From NCBI GenBank assembly GCA_012295275.1, contig CM022665.1:25730001-25794000 (forward strand): 64,000 bases of DNA, in the 5' to 3' direction. Position numbers and translations under genes: made by a program. Shown in pieces: positions 7,701-53,818 of this stretch (the first letter of the stretch is position 1; every line of letters begins with the position of its first letter). The notes under the pieces are model-generated. The model did not search any database and had not been told where the DNA came from. It saw only the letters and a list, made by a program, of their open reading frames with translations. The DNA comes from Chrysomallon squamiferum (Eukaryota; Animalia; Mollusca).

Positions 7701-10700
7701 ACTCACTCCCATTCTTGCTTTGAACCTATTTTTGTATTTAATTTACAGATTAAGCAAACTGTGCCTGATTTTTATTTTCATTCTTTTTCTACAGCTGGTT
7801 TTTGTTTTTAAATTAAATTAATATTTCATGATTCACAATATATATATGCATGATTTTTTAATTTTTTAATTATTTAATTTTTTTAAAGCATCCAATTCAG
7901 CTATGATGAGCGAGGGTCCATTTGTGTGCGGAACGGAGCAGTCACCCTTATTTTCTAGTGCTGCCCTTGGTGCCTCCACGCAGTCACGCTTACCACACCC
8001 TGCATTAGCTAACCCTGATCCTTGGGTAGAGATTGTAGAACAGCCTAAATCAAGAGGCCTTCGTTTCAGATATGAATGTGAAGGTCGATCTGCTGGAAGC
8101 ATACCTGGTGAAAGAACATCAGCTGAAAAGAAAACGTTCCCCACAATAAAAGTAAGTATTTACACTAGCAATCAGAATCATTAATTTTCAGAATGTATGA
8201 ATTATTTTTTTCTTTTATGTCTGACACAGCTTTGAGGTAGATCTGTTTAAAGCTCATAATATTAACATATTTTTTTTTAGATAAATCAGAACTGTTACAT
8301 ATTTCTTGTTAGTTGTTTTCAACAGATATATCAGCCTCAAATCTGTTTAGATGCTAAATAACTTTAAAGAAGGTAAATTGTCTTGATGGTATGTACAGTG
8401 TAATTGTAATTATCTTTTTAAAATATGTAACTCACTATCAGTAACATTTTATATGTACTAAATGCAGTTTAATTTATTTAAATTAAATCCAGTAATAAGA
8501 AGCAACTGGAAGATGATGATTCAGTCATCCATAAAAATGTTTTTACAAGCAGAATTAAAAAAAAAAAAAAGAGAGAGAATCCACAAATCCCTCCCCATAA
8601 AAAAAACCTTTTTGTTCATTTTTGCTTAGTGTGAACATTTTCTACCACAAAATATTTGGTTATGTTATTAATAAATGTGAGCAAAGCTCAGGACTGTTGT
8701 TTTATTGTCTTTATGCTAATTTGTTTATTTATAATAAAATTGTTCTGCAGATTCACAATTATAGTGGAAATGCCATTGTTGTTGTATCATGTGTGACTAA
8801 AGAAGCAGCACCCAATTGTAAACCACATCCTCACTCACTGGTTGGGAAAGATTGTAAGAAAGGAGTGTGCACTGTCAAGGTTAAGGAAAATGATACAGTC
8901 AGGTGAAAAAACTTTATTTTAATGTTTAACATTTTTTGATTTATTTATTAATCTTCAACAAATTTATTATTGTTATCTATATATTTATTTATTTATTTAT
9001 TTATTTATAACAGATGAAACTGCTTTATTTTTTTTTATTTTTTTTTTGAAACAGTTCATGTAAATGTTCTAATTTCATTCAGTTTCCCACATCTTGGAAT
9101 ACAGTGTGCAAAAAAGAAAGAAGTGGAAAACTCCCTAAAAACAAGGAAAGAAATAAATGTGGATCCTTTCCAAAGTAAGACTCAATTGTTTATGTTTTGT
9201 AAGTGGGTGGTGAGGGAACAACCCCCCAACAAAAACACCTCAGCTAAATAAAGAATTTCATTACGTTATACAGAATATTAAAATGTTCTAAGCCATTCTA
9301 TAGTCAGGTTTCAATTTATATTTAAATGCTGGTTAAGCGTAAGACTATTTCAGTACAATATTTTTTTTCCACCTGAAAACAAGATGGTATTATATATTTT
9401 AATTGTGGTGTGACTATTTAGAAAAAGAACTTATCTTTTTCTTTTACAGCTGGTTTTAATCATGGAACTGCAAACATTGACTTGAATGTTGTCAGACTGT
9501 GTTTCCAGGTGTTTTTGCCTGATGCAAATGGAAAGATCACAAGAGTTGTCCCTCCTGTTGTCTCCCAGCTTATTCATGACAAAAGTACGTGAATGTATAA
9601 TTATGGGAAATAGTCTTGTAGTCACATGGAAAAATTTGAAGAGGAAAACAAAAACAAATATTAACATGTAATTTAGAAAAAGTATTTTAAAATGTTTATT
9701 TTGTTTAAACCTATAATTTTCATTCCATATTAATGTATTTTTAAACAAGAGTTATTCATTTTAAACCTATATTTTTCATTTCAGATTAATGTTAATTGTA
9801 AGCATTGAAATGTTTTTATTTGCAAAAGTTCTCTGAAAGAAGAGGTTATAAATGAAACAGTATATCCTTGATTTTTGAACCCTAATGCAATATCACAGTT
9901 TATAGTGATTTAACCAAATTTATAACCATTGTGATTTTGAGATTAGCAAAGAGTAATCTCTACATTATTAAGGACTCTAATTTTTTTTTCTGAAATAGTA
10001 TCAGTACTGAACATTTTAGAAAATATCATAACTGTTTTATCAAATGATACTGATGATATATTTCAGATATTGTAGATCTTGTGTGGTACAGGTTTAAATA
10101 CTAGTCTCGTGTAAAAATGAGTCATTTAATAAGACTTCATGTATATATCATGCTTAAAATGTCTTATAAAAGAAATTAAATTTCTCTGAGAATATATGTA
10201 TGTATGTATATGTATAAGTATATATTTGTGTATGTGTATGTGTAAATATATACATATTTATATTTGTATGTTTGTTAAATGTCTTATAGTAGAAATTAGA
10301 TCTCTCTATTTGAATTGAATATAAATTAGTCCCTTTTTGGGTCCATAAATAGTTATCTAATTTATTTCCAGAGTCACTGAATGAACTGGTTATCTGTCGA
10401 GTTGACAGAAGTTCTGGTCGAGCACGAGGAGGTGACGAAATATTCTTACTTTGTGAAAAAATAAACAAAGGTGAGAAATTCAATACATGGATTGTTTTGA
10501 TTACATATAGCAAAAGATGTTTGTGAAAATGTTACTTGCATATTAAGATAATTTGAAAATAATAATTCTGTTCAGTGTAGTGATGAAACTGTTTCTTAAT
10601 TGATTGCTTATTGGAAGTTCCAATATAAACACAAAATATGTACATAAAATTTATTCTGTGCCTGCTCAACCAGAGCTCTCCAGGTGACCATCTCCAATTT

Positions 10701-13700
10701 TGATAACATTTCACCCATTTGTGCATCCATATAAATGATGAAATTATGGTTAATCAAATGTAGGGCATGTCCTCCCATATTTGAAACTCATAACTGTGTT
10801 GAGATGTTTTCAGCTGTTTTTGAAAGCTAATAACTTTATGTATTACAAAAATGTTGATCTGACATTTGCTATGTTACATATTTCATACCTTGAGAATCTA
10901 AAAATGGAATCATTTTATAAATATCTCTGGCAGTTTGTGACCAGGAGACATCTAAAATTTAGTTTTTTAATATTTTGGAGGTCTATTACTTTCTGATTAT
11001 TTGTCACAGTTACAAACTGTTGATTGAGTAGAGTGTATACCTATGGATGTTTCTTTATGGGAAAATTTATTTGAATCCAGTAAAAATATTAATATGTAGT
11101 TAGGGTCCAAAGTTGAGAAAAAATTACAAAGTTCGCATTTTGTGGTGGAAAATGTCACTGAAAAGTGATAAAGTGACACCTAATTGTCAAAACAAATCTT
11201 AATAATTAGAATGGTTGACATAATATGCTTACTGCATTTTTCTGTAATTAATCACTCTCTTGTAAAGATTGAACAATTCACAAAACAGATATGTTTTGTC
11301 ACTATAAATGATTTCTGGTATCCAAGCTTGAATGTTGCATTAAAATGATCAGATTAAAACTGAAACATGTTGGTTCCCAGTAAATGGTTATTGTAATAAT
11401 GAGAGGTGATTGTGTGTGTGTGTGTGTATTTATTTATTTATATATAGATACATAAATAATATATATAAATATGCAGGTGTCTGTTATCTGCACTGATAAT
11501 GTTATTAATTACAGATGATATTCAGGTACGCTTTTTTGATGAAACCCCAGAAGGTATAGTGTGGGAAGCATATGGAGATTTTGGTTCTGGTGATGTGCAT
11601 CGCCAGGTGAGATACACTTTTAAAGTCAGTTATTTTAAAATGTAAATTTTTCTTTAATAAAATTAACAGAACAATGTGGTGCTCATCATGGTGTAGGTAC
11701 TATAAATAATTACATATATGGATTCCCAGTGTAATCAGTGCTCTTTGCATGCAAAAATAATCAAATTAAGAAATATGAATAGATAGTTATACAATTTCCC
11801 TTATTTAATTTAATAAAGTATTCTCCATGGAAAATGGAAGTTGGTTTCAACATGATTATTAATGTCAAAAATGAGTTGAGGTGTTTTCAAAGAAGCATTT
11901 TTTTCATTTTTTTATTTGTTGAATTTACATCAAAAATAATTCCTGTCATTTTAGTCAGGAAATAAATACATAGTAAAGACTGAAAATTAAATTTGAAAAA
12001 ATTATTAATCATTTAAGTTTTAGATAGTACCTACTGAAGGTAAAATAGTCAACCTTGTAACCACTTTTGTAGGCTGTAAGTAATAAGAAGAAAAAAAATG
12101 GAAATATAGGAGGTAAAATTTAACATAAACTTAAAAGTGGAAACATGTTTCAAATTTGATGAATTCATAAATTGGCCAGATGTATACAAAACAGTCTTGT
12201 TATTTTGACAAACATCATTTTTGTGATTTTACTTCAGTCCTCCTTAAGATGTGATATATTACATATTTTGTGTTCACAGTTTGCCATTGTGTTTAAAACA
12301 CCTGCATTTCGGGAGAGATTAATTGAACGTCCAGTCGAAGTACAGATGCAGCTTCGAAGACCTTCAGATCAAGAAACCAGTGACTCGATTCCATTTACTT
12401 ATATGCCTGAAGATCCTGGTAAATTATTTACAGAAAATTTATCACATTTATGAGTATCATGTTGATATGAAAATTTTGAGAATACTTTTTATATATGACC
12501 CTTTTCAAAACACATTATATTATATGTACTGCAAATATATATTACAATTCAAGTTTTCAGTGACTAATAGAAAAAAAAAATTATTGTAAAAGTTTATTAA
12601 ATGACCAATAAATGATCACAATTTTTTCTTTTGTCATACAAAATTTGGATCAAATATGATAATACAATCAGCTCTGAAAAAAATTATGTTTTATTTTATT
12701 GCGTTTTTTTCTCAACATTGTCTACCATTCCTTTTCAAACATGCTGTTAATATTTTTCTGATAAATATACTGTTTCTTTTTTTATTCTTATTGAGAGCAG
12801 ATTACATAAATGACAAAAGAGAATATTAGATATGTTTTTAACATTGAACAATAATTATACATCATACTTTACTATTATTTTATTTTTTATTTATTTTTTT
12901 TAAACATTAGAACATTGTTGATTTGTGTTGTTTTTGTTTTCTGTTTTAATATAATCTTTCTCTGATTAATAGATCCTGACAGAATTGAGGAAAAACGAAA
13001 AAGAAAATCTGCCACTTTTGCTCATCACTGGAATGCCTCTCCATCAGGTAATTAAAGAGCCAGTTTATTATTAAAGATGTTATAACACTTGCATACAACT
13101 TAATAATGTGATATATCCTTTGACATAATATATAAATTTTCCAGCATTTGTTATTTCCCGGTAAATTTGTTTTGTAAATTATACCAGGCACCATCCAATA
13201 TTTAAATGAACTTCAGTAACCTTCAGTAAATGACATAGATTGGACATTTTCTGAAAAAAAAAATGTTTTATCCTTATTCAACAGCTCTAACTTGTTATAA
13301 ACATTTTCTTTTTCTGTTGCTGACATTAGGAACAGATTTTAAGTATTTTGTAATTGCATAACACCCATATACTGACCTTGTTTTTCATTTATTTATTAAT
13401 ATTATTTTTTTGTGTTTCACTATTTCTTTATAAATAAGTTTGTCTTTTTAAGTTACATCCAAAAAATATTTCAAAAGCTAAAAACAAGTTCTCTGACAGC
13501 GGCATTCAAACCAAAAACTAAATGAACTTGTGGTTTCAGATTCTAATTTGTCAGTTTAAAATACATTTTGTTCAGATTATTTATTATCATTTCAGTTATT
13601 TTAAAAAATAAACATTTCATTTGTTTCAGGTATCTTTGACCCTGAGCGAAATCCAAACGCAGATGTAAAGGAAAGCTTGCGTACAAAACTTAAAGCAAAT

Positions 13701-14565
13701 CGTAAGATAAAAGAAGAGGGAACATCTCAAGGAAGTACGATGCAGTTATTATAAATTTTAAACATATACCATTCAGTTTGTTTAATTCTGCCTTTTTTGT
13801 GTCAAAAAAATGGTGTTGAAATACTATGAACAAAATACCCTTTAAAGAAAATATTTAATTTTAAATATATTTTATTAGCATTATCCCAAAACACCAAAAT
13901 AGGCAAAAATGATTTTAAAAAGTTGGACCAATGTATCGTGTTCTACACGTGTGTCAGAAATAAGTGATTATTATTAAATATTATACAAAATAATGATTTA
14001 AATAAGTATTGCATTAGAATATTATTAATTTAAAGTGGGGCACATAAACTGGCAGATAGTAACATTATCTGTCATTAAATGAAATTAGAAATTAACGCTG
14101 CACGATGATTGGGTTCTTTTTATTTTTTTATTTTTTTCAGATCTTCCCGTGTACTCTCTTGACAATCTTGGCGTGAACACTGCGGGTAACAGTGCCATGG
14201 TCACAAATCAGTCAACAGTATATCGCACAGTTGACAACACAGTGTTGGGCAGTGTCACAATTCAGCAGCCAGTTGTCATGGCAGCTCAGTTTGGAGCTGC
14301 TGCGACCAGCAGCACCAACCCAGCAGGCATGGATGTTGACTTGTCTACTTTAGAAACTGTTGATCTGAACATGCTGCAAGCTTATTTGCAAGACCAAATT
14401 CAAGGCGTTGAAGGGTACACGTTTCAGCCTGTGAATAGTTTGTCAGGTGATCTCCTTGATGCTTCAGTCGACCCTAATATTGCTGCAATGGAAAGTGTTA
14501 CAAGTGATGAAGCAAATGCAGGATCATCCCATGCAAATGTGAAATTGTTTGGAGACAACACATGA
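4780..14565 (+). CDS. Rel: Rel/dorsal-class NF-kB transcription factor (RHD + IPT + NLS + C-terminal activation-type tail, no ankyrin repeats), ~559 aa. Exons 4780-4810, 7560-7631, 7889-8151, 8751-8902, 9083-9174, 9450-9584, 10372-10470, 11515-11606, 12280-12418, 12973-13047, 13630-13734, 14141-14565
   Basis: Motifs [92 protein letters not shown] (PKA-site motif) and EKRKRK NLS. All junctions are GT-AG and phase-compatible; exon lengths sum to 1680 nt. The first two small exons are the least certain. Confidence 0.95.
5450..6207. mobile_element. Old Tc1/mariner (pogo-like) non-autonomous element in Rel intron 1
   Basis: Left end TA|CAGTTGTACCTGC, right end ACAGGTACCATTG (revcomp CAATGGTACCTGT). 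Repeated subterminal GACCACCTGC / GGACACCTGC / GACAC motifs. The 144-aa ORF 5445-5879 overlaps it and has no recognisable domain. Confidence 0.45.
6974..7102. repeat. Short degenerate tandem repeat in Rel intron 1
   Basis: Three related units containing AATGTTTTGTCA...TG(T/C)ACAAGAA; two continue with TGAATAAATGA. Confidence 0.5.
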
Positions 14566-25199: not shown

Positions 25200-25472
25200 T
25201 TATTTATTTATTTCTGGTAACACTGTGAAATATTATGAATGTGGCTTATTTCAAAGTCAAATGGAAATTTTATCAAATACGAAATTTTATTTACACATTT
25301 AACAAAAACATAAATGTGAATATAGCAACAACAACAATTTCTTATTTGATATAATATCTATTTGACTCATTTGCTATTAAAATAAGCCACTTTCATAATA
25401 TTTCAAATATATTTTAAAGAATATTCTGAAACCCCCTTCCCATCAAAATACTGGCAGTGGGCAACTGTCCTA
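25117..25472. mobile_element. Palindromic (foldback) MITE in AIDA intron 1
   Basis: Outer inverted repeat TAGGACATTTGCTCAC (25117-25132) versus revcomp TAGGACAGTTGCCCAC (25457-25472), 14/16. Inner inverted repeat 25226-25251 versus 25380-25405, 25/26. Further nested pairs TATCAAATA(C/A)GAAATT and CACATTTA. Confidence 0.7.
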
Positions 25473-26552: not shown

Positions 26553-29500
26553 ATGTTCCCAACTCCGTCTGAGGTATCTGGCCACACTCTTCTCTCTAAA
26601 GAGAATGAATCAAAATGGAAAGGCATCTTTATCAACGCTTTGAGAGTGGTAAGTTCGTGTTTATTGTTTTTTCAGTATTTGAGACTAACTTCACCAAAAC
26701 AAATTCAGTCGTTTTGATTGGAAAAACTAACTCATGCAATCAAAATTGAGTTATTTTGGCCAGGTATGATGGATCAGACAGTAATTAATAAAAATCTTCT
26801 TTTTTTAATATAATTTATTTAACTGGCATTTATATTTGAAGAAAACATACTGAATGTTTAGTATCTAAGTATGTGTCTTGCAGTGAAAACATATTCATTG
26901 ATTGGTTAAATATATGTCCAAGAAATAAATTTAACTCCAGTCTTGAAATAGATATGTTCTGTAAGTATGTTGTTATAATTAAATTTGTTTCACATTGATC
27001 AGAATCATCACTCGTGTGTGAGAGAGAGAGAGAGAGAGAGTATACTTATCAGACCATTAGAGATTTAGACATACAAAATATGTTTTATCTTTCTTGGTGT
27101 TATTTTAGTGGGTGTTAATCTGTTCTTAGTTCATCATATTTTGTCATTTTCTTCTTTAATCAGAAAAGTCTTTCTTTTTGTAAGACGTTTTTGTGCTTTT
27201 GTTATAGTTTTACTTGATTACATGTATGAATCTTTATACTAAAACAGCAGTGTTTGTAGTTAATCAGATGGGATGGTAAAATATAGTAGCAGCAGATCAG
27301 CATTTTAAATTAACATAATGATTTGATCCATGGCCAGTTTGTCAGACTGACATATAAATTAAATTCTGATTTTGTGGATCATTAATAAAATATATACCAA
27401 GTGCAGTATTAATGACATGTATTGATTAATGCTCTGAAAACTCTGAACAACATAAATACAACTGATCACTTATAGAATGAGTATATGTACTTATTTTTGT
27501 TATTCAACTTATTTTTTAATTCAAGTCAGTAATTACTAATATCAGTGAGTTATTTATTATCAGCAGTGTTGAAATTATGTGAAAAAAACATCTAAATTAT
27601 TAAATTTTAATTGTTAATTAAGACAGATTTGTTAAGCTAAATGAGGAAGTACAAACAAACAAACTGTATTGAGGAAATGAATATCATTGGCCATGTTGTT
27701 ACCTATTTTTATGGTATGCCATAACATGAACACATAAAGTAGAATATAAACATTTAGACAATAGAACAAGGACCAGCATCTACTCAGTAGAACTAGCATT
27801 GTTTTGAATTTATGGATTAGGAAATTATACATGTACATATAAATACAGAGCTGAATCTTAGTGATAGTCCTGAGTTTTTTGACAACATATATCTCATCTG
27901 GGATACCAGTATTGTAACTGCAGTAGTATGTTCGGCTGTCACTTTTTTTTTTCTGCCTGTGCAGTTGATGATATGGCTAAGTGCACAAAGCTGTGATCAG
28001 CAGAGCTGTTCAAACATGCATAGGTTTTGGTTAGGGTTCTTTCTAAGCTACTCTGGTGCTCTGTTCAGTTGTTGTATTGGTGCTGTTGACATCAGAATGT
28101 TACTGCACACATGAAAACATTACCTCTGACTTTAATCTGCAGAATGTTTGCTTCAGCCACAGTGCACTTCCTGTTTTGCTTTAAGCATCAAAGGTTCCAC
28201 TTAGTCACATTAGCGGTTTAAAAAAAATTAGAGGGAATTTGTAGGGAGCCATTAAAAACATGTTTGCCTGAGTTCAGTTATTCCTGTCATAGTACTTGCT
28301 GTAGGACCTAGTCAGTATTTTTCACTGACTTACGAATTACAAGTAAATCATATTGCAGCTTCCAACAAAACGATGCTGTATACTAATGTCAGTTGGTTAA
28401 AAAAAGACAAATACAGGTTGAGAATCTTTTATCTGAAATAACTGGAAGTATTTCAGATTATAGAATATAAGGAAATAGCACAAGAATAGGATCTAAGTCT
28501 AAACACAAATTCCATTTATTATTTCATATGCAGCTTATACAAATAGTCTGCACAATTTTGTGCATAAAATAAAGTTTGTGTATGCAAAAATCCCAAAACT
28601 GTAAGATATCACCATTTCTGCTGCTTGGAAAGTGTTTGGGATTTTGGAGTTTGATCAAATTTCAAAATTTTGGATAAGGGATTCTCAACCTATAATAGAT
28701 TATAAAGAAAACCATCTAAAACAAATACAAAATGAAATTGAAAGCCACTTTAGTAATGAATTTGGGAAAAATTGCAATAAGTTGATTTGTCAACACACTG
28801 GGAATCAAAACAACTTAGAATAGGACCTGTTCATGTGCCTTTCTGATATTCAGTTACAAAATGTCTATGTTACTGATCTAATGCCAAAATGTTTTTGTTG
28901 AAAAATTGGAACAGATAAAATTTTCCTTTATTCAACTGCATGGCTAAAGAAATTCAGAAACAACACAGCTTTTCTATTCACATGGCACTTGAGGAATTGG
29001 GCAGTGTTGATCCCAGTGTTGTTGTTGAGGGATAACAGCAACTTCAGGAATATCTAACAGATTAGTACTCTGAGAATATTTATAGTTTGGATGAAACATG
29101 TTTATTTTATTGATCCAAATTCAACTCTGGCAAGTGGACTGTGTGAGGTCAAAAAAGGCAAAAAGATCAAGTGACAATGTCGCTGACTGCTGATGCTACT
29201 GGAACAGTCTGATTAACTCAGGAAAATGTTTGATCCCAGTATCTATATTACATGTTATTTGAATTAAAAGCAAGTTAAATTTTTTCTTTTTGTTTTCTGT
29301 TTGTTAGTAAGTTATTACATATTACAGTGTTACAAGTTCTAAATATTTAAAGCTAGCTAAATATGAGAACAAATGAGTTAAGTTTATAATGGCAATAAAA
29401 CACATCACAAACATGACTGCTACTATGAGAGTTGTTCATATACACATCTATATATGTATACTAGCATGCACATGTGTGTATGTTTTTAAATAAAAGAATA

Positions 29501-32500
29501 AACAACATAAATAAAGAATAAATGATAACAACAGCTGCTGTAAAATTATTAGTTGATTAAAATAACTATTATTTTAATTTTTTTTTCTTTAAATTTGTTT
29601 TCATGTTTCATTATTTAAAGCTTGTTAAAATAACAATACAGTCTATAGCAGATATTTTAGCATAACCATTTTTTTTTTTACAGGTGCAGCGACAGGGGCA
29701 TTCCTCACTGAGTGCAAAGGATGATGCACTAGAATACATAGAGCAACTGATGATGCAACTTCTAGTTACTCTGTGTCATTCCCAGCCCCACACTGTCCAG
29801 GATGTTGAAGAAGTGGTACAGAAAACTGTCCCAGATCCACTCAATGAGTTGGCAATTAAAGAGGCTAAAGGAGCACTAGAAAAAGGAAAGAAAAACTCTC
29901 ATCTGGTGCTACCTGTTGATAAAGTGCATCTACTGCTAAAAGTAAGAATTTAAAAAAAAATTCACAAAATGTTTATTAATAATCTAAAAATACTCTCCTC
30001 CACCTATTGTGCACAAAAAATAAAAGGAAGAGGAAAAAAAAAAGGAAACCAATAAATACGTTAATTCTTTATTAAAACACAACCAAATTCTTTATTTTTT
30101 TTTAAAAAGCCTGTATAATTATTTTAACTGAATACTAAATAAAGCTTGCAGAAATAATTAAAAGGGTCAGATTCTTGAATAATTTTCTTTAATTTTTGTG
30201 TCTTTAGTTATTATGTTATTTTTAGTAATTTTCTGTTACCCCAATTTTCATTTGTTATGCATTTTCATTATTTTCATTTTGTTCACTGTATTAGTGTAGA
30301 TTCTAATCTCATATTTCAAACTAAAATATTATATTTGTAATTTAAAATACATAAATGAGAATATGAATTCTTAATTTGTTTTTATCTCAGTTCTTTTTGA
30401 AATTTTCTTTTAATTTCTAATGTAATAATTAAATCTGATAAATATAATTTGTGTATACTTACTTTAATGAAGACAGAGTTGCTGGGACATAAAGTGGACT
30501 ATCAGGTGGCACTCTATATAGTGGCTGTTCTTGAATATATTGCTGCAGATATTTTAAAGGTAAAAATTGACATTAATGATTGTAGATGGATTCAGTGAAA
30601 TATAAAGCCATATTAATTATTTATTTTATAATATTCATTAAGAAAAATACTCTATGCTTTCACTGATTTCAAAATGTGTACAAAACGTTAAAATATTGTG
30701 AATCAAGATTCTGTTTTAATTTATGAAAATATCTTACTAGTGTAGACATAATTATTTAAGTTTAACTCTTTCCACTTTTGTAACAAAACTGAATGTTTAA
30801 CTTTTAACCTTTTCAGTTGTTGTTATTAGTGTCTGAGATTTTCCATGAAAATATTTTGTTTTTCAGTTTGCTGGATTCTATGTTAGAAATATGCGCCAGA
30901 CAGAAATAACATCACAGGATATTAAAGTAGCAATATGTGCAGATCAGGTAAAATCAAAAATAAAAGTATACAGACAAAACAAATATAATTTTAATACTAA
31001 ATAAAATTCTTAAAATGATTTTTAGTTGTTAAATGAGAAAATATTTAGGTTTATATATTGAATTTATACTGAGACAGAATACAGTTCATATCACAACAAA
31101 TTTATTTGTTTATATGTTATAAACAACAGGGATCAGTTGACAAATAAAAATATGTTTCTTAAGAATATAGCACATTGCACAATCACTCATTTGAATTTAT
31201 TTAAAATTACTGTCTGTTTTTAACTGAAGTTAGCTTTTGTCAAAGAATTTTATTGCTTCCCTTACAGGTGTTGATGAACATGTTCTTCCAGGAGGAGGAC
31301 AACAACATGTCTCCCATCATAGACTATGAACCAGTTCACAGAGAGTCAACAACTTATGAGGAAATAGTGAAAGACTTTATTGCAGAGGAAACACAGTACA
31401 TGAGAGATCTTAATATGATTATAAAAGTTTTCAGAGCTCCATTTGTTGAACTGTTTCCTAGGAGTAAGGTAATAAATACATGACGGCAGTAAAATGGAGT
31501 TTTCTTTGAGTATGGTGTATATGTAAAGATCAGACTCTCATGGGGCCCATACCACAAAACATCTTGGATGTTTTATTAAGTCTCAGTCTAGGTTAAAAAG
31601 ATGCTTTAATGGCCACCTAACAAGGAATTTAAAAACTAAACTGACACCAGTCTACATAAATCAATAATTCTATCTATCCAGTAGAGAAATAAAACACAAC
31701 ACAATTTAAGGTACAAGTTAATCATTTAATTGTGATACAATTGATAAAGCATATATTCAAATAACTGATTAATGATATTGAGAGCTACAAGTAAGGTCAA
31801 CCAGGGAATCAAGATAAAATAAGAATCTGCACGGTAGGCAGATTAAACAATTAAAAATTTATTTACATAAAATGTTACTGACACAGGTTAATTACACATT
31901 ACACCCTATCAAAATAAGAATAGACAATTGCTTGTCATACTCATCCGTAAAGACAGTGTCATTCAAAAACATTGGTTCCCTGTGACTGAACAGTTTGGCT
32001 CTCATGTTGGCTTTTTCCTTTTCTCTTTAATTACCAAATGCCAGTTGTTATAAAACAACCCCATGGAGTTGAGAAATTGGCAGCAAAAATGAAACATCGG
32101 ATGTCGCAGAAAACTAAATTTGTTATGCAAGCTGAATTCCATGACATAAAAATAAAATAAGCTGACATCGCAGAAAACTAAATTTGTTATGTAATCTGAA
32201 TTCCGTGACATAAAAATGAAACATAAATGTTGCAGAAAACTAAATTTGTGACACAAACATTAAGTTAGTTGTGGCCAAAAGGATTATGATTTAAAGAAAT
32301 AGACTTCCAAGAATAAAACACCATACTGAAGTGTACATTAGCAATGACAGGAAATCTGATTTATGTTAACAGTTTGTTGTTTGTCTACTCTTATGAAATG
32401 TAGCATTTTCATAGTAATTTTTAAGTAAACATCAGTCAAAATCTTTTATTGTTGAGTTGGAACTTTTTAATACTTCACAGATAATAATTTGGACACTGGA

Positions 32501-35500
32501 TCTAAATTACGAAATTCTTTTGAAAATAATAATTGGGATACAGATAAGAATTAATTATGCATACAAATGTACTTTCTCCACAGGTTTCTCTTCTTAAACT
32601 TTTATTTTTTAATTTTAAATGTTTTTAAGTTTATAAATACCTTTTTTTATTATTAATATTTTTTGTTTTCCCCATGTAACTAAGGAACAGGAATATTTTT
32701 CACCTTGTGGTTGTTCATTTGAACTCTGAATATTAATGAACTCGTTGATAAAAAAGATTAGTTATATCTATTCATTTGTATGTAAATTCATTTTGTTTGT
32801 TCAGAAAACTAACCAGTTAGCTTAAACCCATTTGTATGGTGGCATAGGATAACCAGTCGGATGTCATGCAGTGTAATTTTGAGTTACAGCCTGTTAATGC
32901 AGTCCAGTGCATCAGTAGATCAGTTTTGTTTTTCACCATAAATAGTTTTGAAAACATCTCGATTTTCATGTCTATACATGTGTTTTGCTGAAATCAGTCA
33001 ATAAAACATGTTCTTTGTGTTTTTGTGTGACCTGTCAAAATTTGAGTTAACGAAATTATGCTAAAACTGTGCACTTATTTTGCCAAGATTCATCTAAAAT
33101 CTCTGACATCATACAACCATGCATTGCATATCACAGATCTGTAGAATGTGGTTTATCTTATTCCATCAAAACCTGAGTTTTGATCATTTTCACCATGTGA
33201 CTGGTTATCCTATGCCATCACACATTTTATATATCTTAACTAAATTAAATAAACTGGGTAATGACAAACAATTTATTTAATTAATTAATCAATTAATATT
33301 TTACTATTCTTTTTTTTTTGTCAATGTAAATTTGCATATGTTATCATTTTGATGGTTAAAGACAGGTAATCCCTAATAACAATCAATTATATTTTTAACT
33401 GATTTCCCAATACTAATTTATTTTATTTTTTAAATTACATTATCTTTATAAGCTTGTGTACATACATACAATAGCTAGTCATTCACAATGAATTTTATAT
33501 ATGTTTTATATCTAAATTAAAGAAAGAAATTACCTAATATATGGGTAATCTCATATTTGTGTTGTCATAATAGTTAATTTTCTGATGCTCTCTATTCACA
33601 GGATCCTGAGGTGATATTCAGCAATATAATTGATGTGTATGAGTTCACTGCCAAACTTTTAAGCTCTGTTGAAGATCAGATGGAAGTGGCTGATTCCAAA
33701 GGATCAGCAACAGTAGGGACAAGTTTTGAAGATGTAGCAGAGGTATTTGTCCCTTTTGAATGTTTTAATCAGTGACGAATTCCTGGTTTATGTTAATACT
33801 GCATCCAGAATCCCCAAATCCCAAATCTTTTTAGAGCAACTGAAATAGTGATATCTTAACAGTGTACATCAGATTGTTTAGCATACACAACTCTTTATTT
33901 CATGCACAAAATGATTAAAAATATTTTATAAAAGTACCTACAGAGTATCTGCAAACTACAAGCTGTATACAAAATATCAATGGATTTCATATTTAAACTT
34001 TGTCACTGTTCTGAGACTATCATTTGGGACTTCAAAACAGAAACAAAATCAAAAAGATTTCAGATAAGTGATCCTCAATCTGTATCGCTTTTAGATTGTG
34101 ATGAATGAATTTGTTTTAATGCTAACTGCACACATTAAAGATACTGTTGGTTTCTCTTTATTCAGGGAGAAGAATTCAATGTATATGAAAAATATGTTGA
34201 TGACATGTTAGCTCCAAATGGTCGAGAACGATTAAACACATTACTCTTAAGAAGTGATGTTAGTGAATCTTTATTAAAGGTGAGTGCTTACGAGTTACAT
34301 TTGTTAATTTTATACTCATAATTACCTTGTTTAACAGTTGAATATACACTGTTTTTTTAATTTTAACTTTAATCTAGGAGATGTTTCCATTAGTCATTCT
34401 CTGTTAGCACAGACATTTTTTAATCTATAATGATTTATAATGTTCCAGATTTTCAATAATAAAAATGCATTCTATCAACATTAAAAAAAAAAAAAAAATC
34501 ATTTCAGGGTCCTCATTTATTTTAGGTAAAGGGTTAAAACAATCTTGAAAATAAGCCAATATTTATATGCTTTCTTTGTTTTTGTTGTTTTTAACATTAA
34601 ATCAATTTTAATACCACTGTTTCAGTCTGCTGGTCAGGGTTTAAAAGATGCCACTAAGTATGTTCTTCCAAAACTTTTACTGGGACCAGTTTATCACTGC
34701 CTTCATTATTTTGAAGTATTGAAAGTAAGTATCTTAGACTTTGTTAATTTGCAATATTGTGTATATAATGAGGTGTGTGAATGATGAAAAATAAATAATT
34801 CATGTATGGATTCATTCTTCTGCTATCAGTAGGATTCAAATGTATTTGTGTATGTATGTACATTTGCATTTAAATTTTATTGTTGTTGTTTATTTTTTTA
34901 GGCATTGATAGAAAAAAGCCCCACTAGTGAAGATAGAGAAAGTTTAGAACAAGCTAATGGTCTTCTTCAGGCTCTAAAGGCTTCACTGGAGAGAAAGTTC
35001 AGTGGTAGCATTCATAAGAGAAAGCCTTGGTAACTCTTTATTAACTGGTTTCTTATTTTAATTAATGTGATTTATTCTGTAACTTTCAAATAGCAAACAT
35101 TAACAAATGTACTGTGTCACTCTGTTTTTTAATATCATACCTTTCAAATGGTCAAATACAGCTTCTGAAACAGTGGCATTAATGTTGGATAGTTCATTTT
35201 TATCTTATAAAAACATTGTTAACACCAGTATATTTTATATTGTTGATAATATAAAATTTATTGTTTATTGTTAAAATTGAAATAAAAATGTATTCTACAA
35301 ACAGCATAATAGTATCGATTTTTAGGCATGTAAATTATTATTGTTATTATTTATTTATATATTTTTTTTCAATTGTAGGGAAATTTCCTTGCGCTTCACA
35401 AGTCAGATAGGTCGTACAGCAGTGCTGCAGAAAATGACTGAAGTACAGAAGAGCATTGATGGATGGGAGGGCAAGGACATATGGCAGAGCTGCAGTGAAT

Positions 35501-38500
35501 TTATTATGGGTTAGACTCAGATTCATTCATGTTTATCAAAGACTGGCATGTGCTTTCCTGTAAAATGGGAGACCTATATAAAAATTCCCTTACTGTTAAT
35601 TGATAATTATCTATAGAGTATTGAAATTGTGTTATATTGTTATTATGCAGAAATTTTATATTGGTATCTAATAACCTTTAATTTTAAAATTTGCAAACAA
35701 TTATTTTATATATAATTTGTAATAGAATTGTTTTTGCTTTATTTTCTCAATTACAGATTGTGACAAGAAGTAAAAAATGTATTTCTTTTTAATTTGCAAC
35801 AGTCTACAAGATGTTCAGGGGCCTTTCAGTTCATTTCAATTTAACGTGTTTAATATATTTTGTCCAAAGCTTATTAAAAAATATAGCAGAAGTGGTTAAA
35901 CATTACATCATGGTGTAAATAATAATAATTAAAGAAAAAGTAATAGTTTATAGATTTTGGAAAATTCTTTTCATAATGCATTCTGTTCTTATTTATTAGA
36001 AATTTTAAACATTATTTAAAATACAGACATTACAACGTCTGTTACACAAATTTACTGCTTTGAACCCTAACAGTGACACTAAACATTTTAGTAGAAAAAG
36101 GCTTCATGATTTCAGTTGTTATTTCTGTTTGAATCATAAATGTTGACATCACTTTCTGAAATAAGTGTAAACGTAAGAAAACAATCCTGCTATCATCTCT
36201 GGGAATGTAGTCAATGTGTACAATGTATTTTGCATTTCCTGAAATATCATCTGAAACTGAAATAGTCTTTCGGGTAACTTTGACTAAATTTGATCTATAC
36301 TGTATTGTCAAACCATGGGAATAAAATATTATTTCATTTCAGAGGGTAAACTGCATAAGTTTACTGGACGACATCAGTCTGAACGCCATGTTTTCCTTTT
36401 CGATGGTTTGATAATATTATGCAAGCAGAATGCACGACGTTCTTCAGTAACAGGACCTTTAGGAGAATACAAACTAAAAGAAAAGTATTTTGTGAGAAAA
36501 ATAAAAATTATAGACAAAGAAGACACTAATGGTAAGGAAATAAAAATTTAATATACAAATGAAACAAAAAGTCTAGAGTAATACAGTTCACAGAGGAAAT
36601 GTTTTAATTCTGTTCCTTTGACAAATATTGTGTAATGTTTAGAATTGCTACCTCAGATATGATTGATAAAAATGAATAAAAATATCTTCTTTTTTTCTTC
36701 TGTTAATTTCTGCACCAGAATTAGGTGGGGTTTTTTTTGTTTGTTTTTTTATGTTTTTCTTTTTAAATTAAGAATTTTAACTGAACCTTTGAATGCAGAC
36801 AGATATGTTGACACTGTATATTCTTTATTATTTTTTGTTTCACCCAAAATGCTTTACATTTCAGAAATCAAACATGCATTTGATATTCAGTTACGGGAGC
36901 ATCCAGGAACTGGCTTGGTGTTGGTGGCTAAGAGCAGTGAAGAAAAGGGTAACTGGATGGCAGCCCTCATTTCCCTTCAGACTCGAAGTAATTTAGAACG
37001 TATTCTTGATGGTATTATTCGAGAAGAAGACAAGAAACATCCTCTTAGGTTACCTCCACCAGATAAGTATAGGTAATGGAATATTTTATTTCTCTAACTG
37101 TCTGTCTTGCAAGAACATATGTAAAAAGATAATTTGATATTAAAATTACTGTCATCAGTAAATTTAATGCTTTAGACTTCCCCATGAAATTGTACCTGAA
37201 GAAATGGCTTCATTGTTTTAAGTTTTGGAGTTGTTGTTTTTTTCTTCTCTTTTTTTTTTTTCATCATTCTGTAGAATTTTACCAGTAAAGGTTGGTTTAC
37301 ATTTTTGTGCAATAAAACTTATAAATATTTCTTTTAATTACACTTGTTTTTCTTTTAAAAAAAAAAAAAAAAAAAAATAAACCTTTTGTTTTCCTTTCCA
37401 GATTTGCAGTTGAGGACTCTGATGACAATATAGTTTTTGAAGAGAATCAGGATCCCACAGTAGAAAGTCCTGTGATCAAGGGAGGTTTGCTGCATAAACT
37501 GATTGAACGACTCACCTATCATATGTATGCTGACCCCAAGTTTGTCCACACATTCCTCACCACCTATCGGTCTATATGCAGTCCTCACGAACTTCTCGAC
37601 CTACTCATAGAAAGGTAATCATTTATGAAAAACTGCCTTTTAATATTTTACATATTCATGATATTGGTTGTGATCTATGCTTGTTTAATTAAAAATATAA
37701 TGGATTGTTTTATGACTTGGATAGGATGTCTACTGATATTGTTTCGTGGTGTTGGAAAACTGGGGAAGTTTGAATTAGGAATATTTAATTCCCCAAACCA
37801 AAATTGGTGCAGTTCTGTTTAAATTTATAACTAGCATAGGGTGTCAGTTAATATTATTTTGCTCTATTGTTAACACATTTTATTTTCTTTGAAATACTAT
37901 ATCATTGCTATAGCGTAAAGTCTTGAATTTTCTAGAAATGCTGATTTTAAAGTTGCTTTATTTATTTTCATTTTGCTTTGGATGCTCTCTAACATAAACA
38001 TAGTTTTTAACCTGTTATTATTATCCAGCTCAAATGTTTGTACACTCTGTGTTTTCAGGTTCAATATTCCAGACCCTTGCAATGATGACATTATATCAGA
38101 CGATGGGATTCAAGATAACTTAAGGATTCAAGAAGATCTACGACGGTTTCGCATAGAGTATGTCAGACCTGTACAGTTCAGGTAATAGATTCTTGGTTCA
38201 TTTGTTGTTTTCAAATTTCTCTATGGTGTAATCCATACAAAAAAACATAAAAAAACCAACTTGAAATAAGATGTTTTTAAATTTTTATAATAATATTTTG
38301 TTCATCATACTTAACTGGAATGTTAAAATAATGTTGTAATAAGCTACTTTTAGAAACATTTACAACTTAAAATACTCTATTGCCTTTTTTTTTTTTCATA
38401 TATGAAAAATATTTTTTAGTAATTATTTTTACAGAGTGTTTAATGTCCTTCGCCAGTGGTTTGACCATCATTTCTATGACTTTGACCGAGACAAGAGCTT

Positions 38501-41500
38501 GCTGGATAAGCTCATAGACTTTTTAAAAAGTGTCAAGGGAAAAGCTATGAGAAAGATGGCAGAGTCCATAATTACTGTCATCCACAGAAGGGTTTGTTTC
38601 TTTCTTTTTGTATTTGTTTGAAGATTTTTACATTGACAGAATGACATTTTTTTTTAATCTTGAATGTTGTTTTCTCTTACCTTGTTTATTTATGCATAAT
38701 ATTCTTTATAAAAGATTAAAAAAGAAGAACACAAGTTTCTTCTTAAAACCATTAGGAAGTTTATTGAAAAAAGTGTGAAGACTGTGTTTTTTACTTATTA
38801 TTTAATGCTATTTTCAGAAAAGAAATTATTGTATATTTTAATAATTTTCCATATTTCATTGTTTAATGTAATAAATTGTAAGTTTTAGAAGACAAATTAC
38901 ACCATATTTTAATTCAACTTTAATAATTTTTATGCATATGCATCAGTTAGCACATTTCCCTAAATGGTAGGTTTGGATCCTAGTTTGTAATTTCATATTC
39001 AATTTAAATAAAAATGTAACCATTTTAGTTTCTAATCAGTGTTTAATACACAAAGATTTTATATGATTTTCTCTAATTTTCAGTGTGAGTCTGCTGGGAC
39101 TGAAAGAGAATTTACATATCAGAAACAACCGCCTGCAATAGAGTGGCACATCGCAAAGAAGATAGAAGACTATGATCTGATGACTGTAAGTACATACTTA
39201 CACAGTCAAATTAGAGTGTAAGGTTTTTGACAGATATTTATCAATTAAGTTCAAATTACTATATAATTAATAGGAAAATAATTTTTGCTTATAATTATGA
39301 TCAGTGGTTGAAATATATTGTGTGTTTTTTTGAAGCCTGTAATTATACATTTGAGACTATGTGATGTATGTAATAGTAATAGGTATAAAATTGTTTCTTT
39401 AAGGTGCATAATTTTGGAGAATAGTGAGAAACAATTTTGTAATAATTTATATTGCTTCATTATCTTTTATGAACATGACTGCTTTCTTGTTTCCTGGAAT
39501 TTCAAAATATTGTTTAAATATAAAATAATAAAATTAGTCGTAAATGATATCAGCACTTTTATCTTTTTAACTTGTAATGATGTCTTTGTATTATGTATAT
39601 CTTTGAATGAAAATGTTTGTAATATGTTCTTTGCTGAATGACACTAAGAGCAGAATTACATCTGATGAATGTTTGAATGCGATGTAACAAATAAAACGAT
39701 AATGAAAATCACAGATTTTACGAGAAAAAAATAAAACGATTTTGGAAAACCATTCATGCCCAGTCTCCACAACAGATTTAAACATGAAGGAAAAAAGACA
39801 GCCATGTTCTCTGTGCATGCAGTAAGTGTGTTGATTTTATTTCTTCAGCTTCATCCAATCGAAATAGCTCGTCAAGTGACTCTGATCGAGTTTGAACTGT
39901 ATCGTGCTGTTCAGCCGTCAGAACTAGTCGAGGGGGCCTGGGTGAAGAAAAACAAAGGGACAGAAGCTCTCAATCTCCTCAAAATGATTCGCTTCTCCAC
40001 TATGGTTTGTGTTCAGATTTCAATTGTGTTTTACAGTCATTTTGTTTGGTGTTTTGTTTTCATTGTAAAGTTTTATTTTTCAGACATGTTTCTAAATACT
40101 TGGGGATGGTTTAATACCTGTAAAAATTATTATAGTATTCTTACACACACTTTGTAATTTCCAGTAGTTTCTTTCATCTTCTTTTTCTTCTTTTTTTTGT
40201 TTTTGTTTTTAGATTTATTGCTTTGTACTTGAGATGTTTGCATATTATTAACCATTTCAGTTTGTGAAGTGAGACTTTTATATAAAAAATTAATTGTACA
40301 CTCTCTTTTTATAGGTGGTTTTAATACTTTTCATTATCGTTTAATTAGTGCATTTGATTTTGTACAATTCAAATTGTACTAAATGAATAATTAAAATATT
40401 CAAAGCATTTACTTAGGTGTAAATAAATCATTACTTCATACTGCCAAAAAAAAAACCCCCAGTTTATTTTAATTTTATACTTAAGCATGAAACTGGATTA
40501 TTATTGAACTTTGAAATGTAATATATATTGACAAACAAAACAAATAAATTATTTCAATTTTCACAGTTTACATTTTGGATGGAAAAATGTATTGTGGAAA
40601 CAGAAAATCTTGAGGAAAGAGCTGCAGTAGTTTCCCGGATCCTGGAAATCATGTTAGTCTTCCAAGAACTGAACAATTTCAATGGAATGTTGGAAGTGGT
40701 CGGTGCAATTAATTCTGCTTCTGTTCACAGGCTTGAGCATACATACAAAGTAAGTGTTTTTAATTGAAAATCTGTTCAGTCTTTCAGTAAATAAATCATC
40801 TATAATACCCTTTCATCCCGTGATGGTTTAAATACATCAACATTTGGTTAAATCCGGGAATCTTTTGTTATTTACGTTGACAACTTATTGGATACTTTAA
40901 TGTTAGCCTTCACTGATGACAAAATATATCTTTTTCAGGAGGTTAATCACAAATTGCTGAAAGCCCTCGATGATGCAAAGGAGCTCAACTCGGACCACTT
41001 TAGAAGATATCAAGAAAAACTCCGCTCAATCAACCCACCCTGTGTGCCATTTCTTGGTGAGAGAAAATATATACTCTAATATTACTTCAGTTTTGATAAA
41101 GGCTGTTTTTATCCAATTTTTATATCTGTGTGTTTTGTCAGTGTTACAGCATTCATTCTGTATTTCTTTATAATCAAATATTTATGCTTAATCTTATTCC
41201 ATAACTATTGAGTCACACACACACACACACACACACAGTTGTAGATTGTGGGTTTTTTTATAATTATTTTATCTAAAATTAACATTTGTGAAATAAAGTA
41301 TCCCTCTGTTTGAATAACTTACTTATAAATAACATTTGTCACATTTTTCTTTAATAATATGTAAATATTTTTGCTAAATCTACATCATATATATATATCA
41401 CTGATGAATTGTTTGTTTGTTCATATACCGACTCTAACATATGTAACATCATAAAGACATAAATTAAAAAACCTGGTTTCGAATGGGGGTATAACTGGAT

Positions 41501-43372
41501 AGACAGATAGTTCTGACAGTTGCTGCATGAGATTTGATAAAAAAAAATTATTTATTCATCTAGGTATGTATCTGACCAACATTCTGTTGACTGATGAAGG
41601 AAATCCAAACTTTCTGCCAAACAGACCTCCTGGTCTAATCAACTTCAGCAAGAGACGTAAAGTTGCTGAAATAATAGCTGAAATTCAGCAGTATCAGAAC
41701 CAACCGTATTGTCTGACCGTTGAACCCACTATCAAGGTATAAAAAATAATAATATGAAAGAAATTAGTTTTAACTATATACAACAGTAAAAATTATCCAT
41801 GCATTATTTGATGTTAATTAAACACAGGCCCACTGAACTGAACCAACACATTAAGGTTTAATAAATATTTTTCTGACTTTACTAGTGAGATGGTCGTTTA
41901 TTTGTTCCACTGATTTTGACAGTTAAAATTATAACATGGGTATTACATCATGCTAAACCTTTAAAAAGTTGAATAGTAAAATGATTTTTCATCATGTCCA
42001 GCTTGTGTTCAGTTATGTCAGTGATAATTTAATTGTATGTTTCAGGAATTTTTTGAAAATTTAAACCCACTTGACAATATGTCTGAGAAGGAATTCAATG
42101 ACTACATTTATAACAAGTCACTGGAAATAGAACCCAGAAATGCCAAACAGCTACCCAAATTTGTAAGTATTTTATTCTTGTATATCATACTCAAAGACTC
42201 TATTTTTATTCTCTGAAATTAAATTCAAAATTGTATTTTTAGTCTCAAATGATAAATAAAATAAACCAGTAACTTTATAAAGTATTTGAAACCATACTTA
42301 TAATAAGCACATATGGACTGATGATTATATTAAAACAAATTTTAATAAGTGTGTCTTTGGACACTAAATTATATTAAATGTCACTTGTAATAATAAAGGC
42401 AGTGATGTTCAGTTTTTATTTCCTTTTTTCAGCCAAAGAAATTTGAATATTCTTTGAAGTCTCCAGGTATAAAACCAATGGCCAATCGTCACAGTGCTTC
42501 ATCTCGAAGTCATCCTTTAGCATTTGGATTCACTAAAAGCCCTGATGATGATGACACAGTATCACAGCGTGCAGCAACATCACCCTCAACACCATGCAGT
42601 CCTTTGACACCTCCTCACTCATCAACTGGTAGAAGTAACAATGTTTTTCAACCAGGCAAGTTTTGTTTTACATTCCACCATAAGTAACTTAGATAGTGAG
42701 TAGCAGACTGTTTTTAAATATGGTATTATCAAATTATTGTTGGTTGCATACATATTTTTTTTTAAATTATGCATTTTGTTCATGGTTAATATTAAAAGAC
42801 ACTTTTTAATGAAAATGATTTGTATTATTAATGGATATTGCAAACGATATTAAGTCATTCAATTTTTTGTATTCATTACAGATTCAGCCCAGTTTCAAAG
42901 GCTAAGCCTGAGCAGTGCAAATTTATCAAGTAGCATTCCCTCCAGCACACCAGAAAAACTAGAGGAGTGCAAGTTAAAGCCTCCACCCTTGCCTCCAAGA
43001 CAAAGACATCGGGACTCTGTTAACGAGCTTTCAGGTGTTTTCAGACCACCGTCTGTTCCAGATCCCCCTCCTCCACCTCCTCCTCCTCGCTTTAATGGAG
43101 ATAGGCCTCCCCCTGTCCCTCCACGAAGAGATTCAGTTCGCGACATGGGACACTGCAATACATTACCACGTTCACAAAGTGTCTCCCACCCCAGGCAGCC
43201 TGCTCATTTATTAAATAGTGCTACATTGCCACGACACCACTCAGAACGACACAGCTCAGAGAGGACCTTTCAGAGCACATCAATGATGGATCTTAACGGC
43301 GATGAAACTTATACACCTGAACTGCCACCTAGGACTTACAAATATTCATATTCAGATAAGCACAGCAGCTAG
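26553..43372 (+). CDS. SOS: Son of sevenless Ras/Rac GEF (histone fold, DH, PH, REM, CDC25, Pro-rich tail), ~1262 aa. Exons 26553-26648, 29684-29941, 30473-30559, 30867-30947, 31268-31468, 33602-33742, 34166-34279, 34626-34724, 34902-35029, 35379-35509, 36343-36531, 36865-37072, 37402-37614, 38059-38181, 38435-38591, 39084-39185, 39849-40004, 40567-40749, 40939-41056, 41564-41736, 42046-42162, 42433-42655, 42882-43372
   Basis: Motifs [134 protein letters not shown], and Grb2-type PPPLPPR / PPPVPPRR. Phases are consistent over 3789 nt; TAG at 43370-43372. Confidence 0.97.
28360..29240 (+). mobile_element. Decayed pogo/Tigger (CENP-B-like) transposase relic in SOS intron 1, interrupted by a MITE
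   Basis: Fragments with stops and frameshifts: MSVG*KRQI|[25 protein letters not shown] (N-terminal HTH-like), [45 protein letters not shown] (cf. pogo IYNADETGLF), [20 protein letters not shown] (cf. ITVLLCANATG). Boundaries are approximate. Confidence 0.85.
28414..28692 (+). mobile_element. Tigger4/MER46(Zombi)-like MITE, complete, TA-flanked
   Basis: TA|CAGGTTGAGAATCTTTTATCTGAAA ... TTTTGGATAAGGGATTCTCAACCTA|TA (inverted termini, TA target duplication). Internal AAGTCTAAACACAAATTCCATTTAT..TTTCATATGCAGCTTATACA..AATTTTGTGCATAAAATAAAGTTTGTGTA. The family name comes from my recollection of the mammalian consensus, not from a search. Confidence 0.8.
32087..32250. repeat. Minisatellite, ~62-64 bp unit x ~2.5, in SOS intron 5
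   Basis: GCAGAAAACTAAATTTGT at 32106, 32170 and 32232, with shared CTGAATTCC(A/G)TGACATAAAAAT spacers. Confidence 0.9.
32834..33223. mobile_element. MITE with ~25-bp terminal inverted repeats and ATTT flanks
   Basis: GTATGGTGGCATAGGATAACCAGTC (32834-32858) versus GACTGGTTATCCTATGCCATCACAC (33199-33223). ATTT lies on both sides (32830-32833, 33224-33227). Confidence 0.85.
33800..34082 (-). mobile_element. Second, more diverged copy of the Tigger4-like MITE, inverted, in SOS intron 6
   Basis: Ends ...ATTTCAGATAAGTGATCCTCAATCTG|TA. Contains TTTATTTCATGCACAAAATGATTAAAAATATTTTATAAAAGTACCTACAG and AAGCTGTATACAAAATATCAATGGATTTCATATTTAAACTT, the reverse complement of the interior of the 28414-28692 copy. 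The left boundary is unclear. Confidence 0.75.
42656..42881 (+). other. GC-AG intron (last SOS intron)
   Basis: CAG|GCAAGT donor, otherwise a full consensus match, joins in phase 1 to acceptor TTACAG|AT and keeps the frame into the proline-rich last exon. Confidence 0.75.
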
Positions 43373-52400: not shown

Positions 52401-53774
52401 ATTAAATTTTAAAATTACCTTTATTTGGTGATTTTCAAAACAGATTTACATGCATGTCTCAATAAAAACAAAAAATTTGGGATAACTTTTATCTGACTGC
52501 TGTTATTTATTTTTATTTATTTATTTATTTTTGTTGTTGTTTAACAATATTATGAAAAACATTTTGCTCCTTTCCAGCAGCTGGCATAGTTATAACTTGA
52601 TGGCATAAAAGGTAGAGTGGTTTGCTGGATAAGTTTTTTCTGATATTGTTCAGATTATTGTTTTTAGTGTTTGTTTGTGTGTGTGAATGATTATTCATTT
52701 GTAGCCCCTGCAATATACTTTAAGCATTTAATTCAGTTATATATCACATTTAAGGTAATCCTCACCAAATTATTAAAATGTTTCTATCTCTTAACTCATT
52801 TCTTCTGATATTGTTTAACCAGTGTATGAAGAAACAGTTATTGAAAACTTCATTGAAATTGTTCCTGATGAAAGCATAAACCATGATATTTACATTGAAC
52901 TGCTCAGACTAAAATGTAAGGAAAATGTTTAACAACTTCCAGCAAAGGAAAATACATCAGTTGGTATTCCAGTGTGGCTTGATAATGAAATAATTCTTGT
53001 TCTGGATAAAAAAAAAAACTCTTACCAGCTAAATATACTGCTTCATGGCAACAAGATATTTCATAACGACAGATGCTGTCTGGTACTGAGGGTGGGCACT
53101 GAAAAAAGCTAAAAAAAAGATTATATATATAATTATTAATGTGCAGAAAAACTATTTAAATTGTTTTATTTTAACATGCATATTTTTTTTTTTCATTATT
53201 TTTAACCACCGAAAAAGAGATGAAATGTGACTTATATTTTGATGTTTAACTTGAAATTAAAAAACCCACATAATTTGAAAACTTATATATAAACATGATA
53301 AAGAAACGGATAACAAATCAAATGCAAACATATGAAATAACAATAATATTTAGAAATGACAACAAATTTTATCTCATAATGTTATCTAAATAATGTCCAT
53401 TAAGTTATAAACTAAAGGAAATTTATATTTTAATTAATAGCAACTTATAATTAAAAAATTAAAACCAAAACTAGTCATTTTGCTTACTTATATAAAGAAC
53501 AGGTATTTATAAAATGTTATTATATATTAGGGTTCTCTACAATGAATATTTAAAGACACCCCCCCCCACCAGAAAACAAACCAAGGATGAGTAAACAGAA
53601 AATGAAAATGAATAATCTTTAAATGTTTTGTTTTTTTAAAGATACCTTTTAAATTTCTCTTCATCCATTTGTGATAATGCTTTGGCAACACTTGCTCTGG
53701 TAAAAGTTTCATAACCATACTAAATTAATATAAAACAGATTCAGAATATCAAAAATAAATACTTAAAAATGATA

Positions 53775-53818
<44 letters not shown>

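What the first reader, a model, noticed from the sequence alone, without database searches (positions are those of the whole stretch)
28414..28692. MITE resembling mammalian Tigger4/MER46 across non-coding sequence: horizontal-transfer candidate
Seen: a complete TA-flanked 279-bp element. From my recollection of the eutherian Tigger4 (Zombi)/MER46 consensus (CAGGTTGAGTATCCCTTATCCGAAA...AAGTCTAAACACGAAATTCATTTATGTTTCATATACACCTTATACACATAGCCTG...AATTTTGTGCATGAAACAAAGTTT...GGATTTTGGAG...AGGGATGCTCAACCTG), the match covers both TIRs and the AT-rich interior in the same order. Inference: non-coding similarity like this should not survive vertical descent since the bilaterian ancestor. It points to horizontal transfer of a Tigger4-family element between this invertebrate's lineage and early mammals, directly or through a shared vector. 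Contamination is unlikely because the element sits in a SOS intron and interrupts another element.
Basis: partly seen in the sequence, partly recalled or inferred. Interest (0 to 1): 0.85.

Follow-up and report, generated by a model that had tools for sequence, protein, structure and literature searches.

The report
Tigger4-like mini-transposon in a mollusc intron
A dead 279-base jumping-gene copy sits inside an older dead transposon in an intron of what is likely a mollusc; its ends match a lizard transposon tied to the Tigger4 repeats of mammals, which likely records this transposon lineage hopping between distant animals (a known kind of event), although likeness to the mammal repeat beyond the ends could not be computed.

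Summary
The element is real. 28414-28692 has 26-nt terminal inverted repeats (21 of 26 paired) and TA on both sides. Removing it plus one TA restores, without gaps, the first helix of an older decayed pogo transposase, which shows both the TA duplication and the nesting. It lies in SOS intron 1, has a second copy in the window (71%), and is multicopy in the host, with both junctions bridged in 4 of 4 runs from 3 studies, so it is not contamination. Its TIRs match the published TIR of anole TcMar-N17, a family with Tigger4-like ends, at 18/20 and 17/20. No mammalian Tigger4 sequence could be obtained, so the key claim, similarity across the interior, stays recalled and untested, as do all three standard horizontal-transfer tests. 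The same TIR type occurs in a lizard, and older related invasions of vertebrates are published, so a widely circulating lineage fits better than a direct invertebrate-mammal jump. Tigger transfers between mammals and invertebrates are already reported. Verdict: new member of a known kind, moderate interest.

The parts
28414..28692 (+). Non-autonomous pogo/Tigger-type MITE, copy 1 (279 bp), decayed, with an internal deletion of about 29 nt relative to copy 2
28414..28439 (+). 5' terminal inverted repeat (26 nt); 17/20 to anole TcMar-N17 TIR
28667..28692 (-). 3' terminal inverted repeat (26 nt); 18/20 to anole TcMar-N17 TIR; outermost base mutated
28412..28413 (+). TA target site, left copy
28693..28694 (+). 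TA target site duplication, right copy
   Evidence: frame restored only when one TA is removed with the element
28397..29210 (+). Older decayed pogo (CENP-B/pogoR-like) transposase ORF remnant, first helix through start of DDE domain, split by the MITE; left limit approximate; stops and frameshifts
33790..34082 (-). Second, more decayed copy of the MITE family in another SOS intron; 3' limit approximate
26649..29683 (+). Intron 1 of the host SOS (Son of sevenless) gene, which holds both nested elements

Best explanation
This is a dead, non-coding pogo/Tigger-type MITE with Tigger4-type ends, one of many copies in a host that is likely a mollusc, and it likely descends from a Tigger4/Zombi-like transposon lineage that moved horizontally among many distant animals, with mammals and this host as two separate recipients. 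Shown: TIRs, TA duplication, nesting in an older pogo ORF inside SOS intron 1, multicopy status, presence in 4 of 4 runs. Inferred: a transposase from an autonomous partner (not found) bound the TIRs, cut the element out and pasted it at a TA; the family then decayed; the copy is spliced out with the intron and has no function. Inferred, resting on recall: non-coding likeness to eutherian Tigger4 too high for descent from the bilaterian ancestor, hence horizontal movement through a broad reservoir, not necessarily a direct jump.
For: Empty-site reconstruction: ungapped alignment to 4 homologues, summed score 217 at the exact 'element + one TA' register against 173-199 at the 12 other offsets. 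Copy 2 is 71% identical, 195 of 273 columns. Summed contig depth over 28531-28617 is 44-102 times the single-copy flank in 4 of 4 runs (not a copy number). TIR match to anole TcMar-N17 (TA TSD, 26-nt TIR, 356 bp, 17% from consensus, 'ends similar to marsupial Tigger4'). 16 nt of human miR-1290, which lies wholly in Tigger4a, agree with 28663-28678 at 11 of 16 by hand count (weak, terminal only). Repeated invasion of vertebrates by this clade: MER46c 24.9% versus Tigger4 14-15% divergence; JRK domestication and pseudogenes. Tigger and Tc1/mariner transfers are common.
Against: No mammalian Tigger4 sequence was compared by a tool, so the interior match is unverified. No autonomous partner, host consensus, tree or taxon survey. 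All collection scans for relatives were empty or gave one TIR-only bacterial match, though those collections are mostly prokaryotic or viral. The published pogo tree lists only mammalian sequences beside Zombi (sparse sampling, flattened text). Of three host-family differences that fall within the quoted interior fragments, two move toward the recalled string and one away (by eye). Host phylum rests on three reference proteins (66/61/56% identity).
Confidence: 0.62

Rival explanations
1. Direct or single-vector transfer: the host's family and eutherian Tigger4 are each other's closest relatives and moved between a mollusc lineage and early placental mammals.
Against: Same TIR in an anole family; related older invasion MER46c; the Tigger survey found cross-phylum transfer only between Eutheria and arthropods; no match in viral contigs.
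Confidence: 0.12
2. TIR-only kinship: the element shares just the Tigger4-type terminal repeat, as many pogo MITEs of one clade do, and the interior likeness is an artefact of recollection; no special link to mammals.
For: Every tool-based match is terminal; the anole paper itself reports likeness mainly at the extremities; interior-motif scans were empty.
Against: The quoted interior fragments are long, ordered and not identical to the window; my independent recall agrees; the empty scans covered collections with little animal DNA.
Confidence: 0.16
3. Vertical persistence: Tigger4-like elements stayed active in both lineages since the bilaterian ancestor, and subterminal cis-sequences were conserved by transposase binding.
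For: pogo/Tigger elements are present in most animal phyla; JRK-type sequences are old in vertebrates.
Against: Needs over 500 million years of conservation of AT-rich non-coding DNA in a mobile element (inference); the Tc1/mariner-host tanglegram is highly incongruent; Tigger4 is young in the human lineage.
Confidence: 0.08
4. Mammalian contamination or mis-assembly.
For: Resemblance to a human repeat family.
Against: Single contigs bridge the left and right junctions in 4 of 4 runs from 3 studies; many diverged copies in the host; exact nesting with TA duplication; second copy in the same gene.
Confidence: 0.01

Closest known systems
TcMar-N17_AC of Anolis carolinensis (PMC3014272; passages and Table 2 read, supplements not available)
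   Same: TA TSD, 26-nt TIR, first 20 nt match 18/20 and 17/20, non-autonomous, similar size class (356 bp), old (17% from consensus), no partner found
   Different: Different phylum; this copy is 279 bp; interior not comparable because the paper prints only the TIR
Eutherian Tigger4 (Zombi) and its derivatives Tigger4a/Tigger4b (MER46a/b) and MER46C (PMC5753468, PMC1914374 passages; PMC4482582 and PMC5331655 supplement rows)
   Same: Mariner/pogo class, short non-autonomous form (Tigger4a 236 bp), terminal letters agree 11/16 with a Tigger4a-derived miRNA; interior likeness by recall only
   Different: Host is not a vertebrate; full alignment not tested; no transposase available to place it in the pogo_JR clade
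Tigger horizontal transfers of Diaby et al. 2022 (PMC9219625; parts 1-3 of 7 read, supplement searched)
   Same: Same superfamily and same kind of event; molluscs and mammals share Tigger clusters
   Different: Cross-phylum transfers reported only for Eutheria-arthropods; the names Tigger4 and Zombi and this TIR were not found in the held supplement; their tests used transposase distances, which are lacking here

Membership tests
pogo/Tigger-type MITE | TA target site duplication | tested here: met
pogo/Tigger-type MITE | Short TIRs (up to 40 bp) | tested here: met
   26 nt, 21 of 26 paired; class definition
pogo/Tigger-type MITE | Short, no transposase ORF of its own | tested here: met
   stops in all six frames
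pogo/Tigger-type MITE | Dispersed multicopy family | tested here: met
   second copy; 44-102-fold summed depth in 4 of 4 runs
pogo/Tigger-type MITE | Autonomous partner with the same TIRs | not testable with these tools
   no host genome held; collection scans empty
Tigger4/Zombi family | Tigger4-type TIR | tested here: met
   by proxy: anole TcMar-N17 TIR 18/20, 17/20; miR-1290 piece 11/16
Tigger4/Zombi family | Alignment to the Dfam/Repbase consensus across the interior | not testable with these tools
   no such library; no paper or supplement searched printed the sequence
Tigger4/Zombi family | Transposase groups with Zombi in the pogo_JR clade | not testable with these tools
   no partner transposase; published placement of Zombi seen
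Horizontal transposon transfer | Element more similar than host genes allow | not testable with these tools
   needs both consensus or transposase sequences
Horizontal transposon transfer | Element tree incongruent with species tree | not testable with these tools
   no set of orthologous elements obtained
Horizontal transposon transfer | Patchy taxonomic distribution | tested here: inconclusive
   TIR type in this host and an anole; no animal genome collection to survey; run search found only the host species
Horizontal transposon transfer | Contamination excluded | tested here: met

The most novel reading that the evidence does not exclude
The host's family consensus is the closest relative of eutherian Tigger4 along its whole non-coding length, so a mollusc lineage (or a parasite it shared with early placentals) was the source or sister recipient of the invasion that left thousands of Tigger4 copies and some miRNA genes in the human genome.
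Probability: 0.12. Interest if true: 0.7.

Novelty: new member of a known kind. Interest (0 to 1): 0.36.

Why it matters
Where mammalian DNA transposons came from is largely unknown. Human holds 1,250 Tigger4 and 3,242 Tigger4a copies in one count, and miR-1290 and miR-5009 lie in Tigger4a. A close relative in a mollusc would add a phylum to the transfer network of this lineage: the Tigger survey found only Eutheria-arthropod cross-phylum transfers. Searches of the held library showed no report of Tigger4 transfer involving a mollusc (listings and passages only). As it stands it is one more lead of a known type, cheap to settle with Dfam and the host assembly.

Tried and rejected
No host genome is held. 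TIR-pattern scans: viral 0, metagenome 0, GTDB 1 locus, which matched only the TIR and is taken as chance. Interior-motif scans: 0 in metagenome, viral and GTDB. blastn of the element: plasmids 1 and phages 2 short hits with E of 0.08 or more, E. coli 0. Rfam: 2 sub-threshold chance hits. Full-text search for two TIR motifs: 0 papers. Supplement searches for motifs: none in PMC9219625, PMC7386202, PMC7325037, PMC5331655; PMC3014272 supplements unavailable and may bear on the interior comparison; PMC3190270 not held; PMC10162687 and PMC10506250 had no relevant terms. Searching a read-through translation of the element for mis-predicted proteins from Tigger4 copies found no candidate. Word-index search with the decayed flank transposase was empty, Pfam did not score it and PDB gave nothing; the full HMMER search did. 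Earlier-finding look-ups by sequence and by the full word set were empty. Variation of host contigs over copy 2 was not measured. A hairpin fold (z -5.1) is expected from the TIRs and is not evidence of function. The idea that the flanking transposase is the MITE's own partner was rejected: the MITE is inserted into it, and it is near single-copy at 80% likeness.

Full report
Observation. The 279 bases at 28414-28692 are flanked by TA on both sides and end in 26-nt inverted repeats, 21 of 26 paired. A scan for TA-flanked arms of this quality found this element and two other regions in the window, and nothing in 5 of 5 Markov resamples. All six frames have stops, so the element is non-coding.

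Host context. Pfam identifies Rel and RasGEF exons in the window. An abalone SOS protein aligns in 22 pieces from 29678 to 43369 at 66% identity, against 61% for a centipede and 56% for a stick insect protein. The first coding exon is at about 26553-26648, so the element lies in intron 1. No genome is held.

Nesting and target site. The DNA after the element reads as a decayed pogo transposase: 40 proteins hit at E up to 0.001, and 10 of 10 scanned carry HTH_Tnp_Tc5 and DDE_1. tblastn maps the remnant over about 28700-29210. Removing the element plus one TA gives an ungapped alignment of the first helix across the junction for the 4 homologues shown; the summed score is 217 at this register and 173-199 at the 12 other offsets. 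Of 12 homologues scored, 9 scored higher on the empty site, 2 tied and 1 scored lower. This shows the TA duplication and that the MITE is the younger element.

Family in the host. A second copy lies on the minus strand near 33790-34082 (blastn E 2e-13; 195 of 273 columns identical) and carries about 29 nt that copy 1 lacks. Nine runs of one organism hold the locus; I laid 4 of them. 240-337 contigs per run were laid on 27400-30000, most under 95% alike (this count includes other repeats in the stretch). Summed depth over 28531-28617 is 44 to 102 times the flank; the tool warns that this is no copy number, but it shows a dispersed family. In 4 of 4 runs one contig bridges the left junction and another the right. 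No empty-site joint is among the 15 of 29 joints shown. Other joints show shorter deletion forms of the family. Contamination is excluded, and the insertion looks fixed in these samples.

Link to Tigger4. The anole paper (PMC3014272, passages and Table 2) lists TcMar-N17_AC with TA TSD, a 26-nt TIR, 356 bp, 137 copies and 17% divergence from consensus, and says its ends resemble marsupial Tigger4. Its printed 20-nt TIR matches the window three times, at both ends of copy 1 (2 and 3 mismatches) and the start of copy 2 (3), with 0 matches in 100 shuffles. hsa-mir-1290 lies wholly within Tigger4a (PMC4482582 supplement row); 16 nt of it, from a primer table (PMC6554369 supplement), agree with 28663-28678 at 11 of 16 by hand count, which is weak and terminal. 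No route gave a mammalian Tigger4 interior. Of three host-family differences inside those fragments, two move toward the recalled string and one away. My own recall of the consensus agrees, including an AT-rich stretch where copy 1 has its deletion, but recall is a lead and not a test. I put the interior match at roughly 80-85% likely to be real.

How it works. Shown: ends, TSD, nesting, copies, decay. Inferred from established pogo/MITE biology: an autonomous element's transposase bound the TIRs and moved this deletion form by cut and paste into a TA; the copy has since lost TIR symmetry and an outermost base and is removed with the intron. The strong hairpin follows from the TIRs.

Transfer. 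If the interior match is real, vertical descent from the bilaterian ancestor is implausible for AT-rich non-coding DNA (inference), so the lineage moved horizontally at least once. The pairing with mammals is not exclusive, though. The TIR type is in a lizard. MER46c, at 24.9% divergence against 14-15% for Tigger4, is read as an earlier related element (PMC1914374 passages). JRK was domesticated before the monotreme-therian split, and JRK pseudogenes occur in cartilaginous fish, lobe-finned fish and frogs (PMC7386202 passages). A published tree lists Zombi beside a human and an opossum protein in the pogo_JR clade (PMC7325037 supplement file 4 part 14; flattened text; that these are JRK is my recall). 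Unchecked earlier notes report Tigger4-like MITEs in a ray and another vertebrate. A broad reservoir therefore fits best (0.62), ahead of TIR-only kinship (0.16), direct transfer (0.12), vertical persistence (0.08) and contamination (0.01). Against my reading: no invertebrate sits next to Zombi in that tree, and none of the three transfer criteria could be run.

Known versus new. Tigger transfers among animals, including Eutheria-arthropod, are published (PMC9219625, parts 1-3 of 7), and Tc1/mariner elements are the most often transferred group (PMC7325037 passages). A snail-parasite retrotransposon transfer is also in print (PMC13155389 passages). I saw no report of a Tigger4 relative in a mollusc in the listings and passages; the library lacks most subscription papers, and Repbase and Dfam could not be checked. 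The element is a member of the pogo/Tigger MITE class; it has Tigger4-type ends, but membership in the Tigger4 family is not established. Verdict: new member of a known kind, interest 0.36.

Noticed in passing
window 55634-55959: Another TIR element: 47-nt arms, 94% complementary, with an internal tandem duplication (83%) containing TG/TA/CA microsatellites.
   Followed up: no
window 25233-25398: TA-flanked imperfect AT-rich inverted repeat, possibly another small MITE.
   Followed up: no
window 28009-28095 and 29488-29661: Two further depth peaks in host contigs, so other repeats or low-complexity matches lie in SOS intron 1.
   Followed up: no
window 29039-29154: A different host contig matches the old pogo transposase remnant with 9 differences in 116 bases (listed for 3 of 4 runs): at least one more copy of the older element exists.
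   Followed up: partly
window 28439-28630: Host contigs in 3 of 4 runs join these places with 12 other letters between: a much shorter derivative of the MITE family.
   Followed up: no
window 32085-32249: Local tandem duplication, 82% over 105 nt, in a SOS intron.
   Followed up: no
window 578-61653: Compact gene cluster: Rel/NF-kB (7870-14565, Pfam RHD) and SOS (26553-43372); by eye and recall only, BCKDHA-like (578-823), AIDA-like (minus, near 23564), PUS10-like (minus, 50003-57175) and COQ8/ADCK3-like (minus, 61300-61653) exons.
   Followed up: partly
L001 1001-1025: Single TIR-like match inside a 645-kb bacterial MAG contig, no further similarity; taken as chance.
   Followed up: yes
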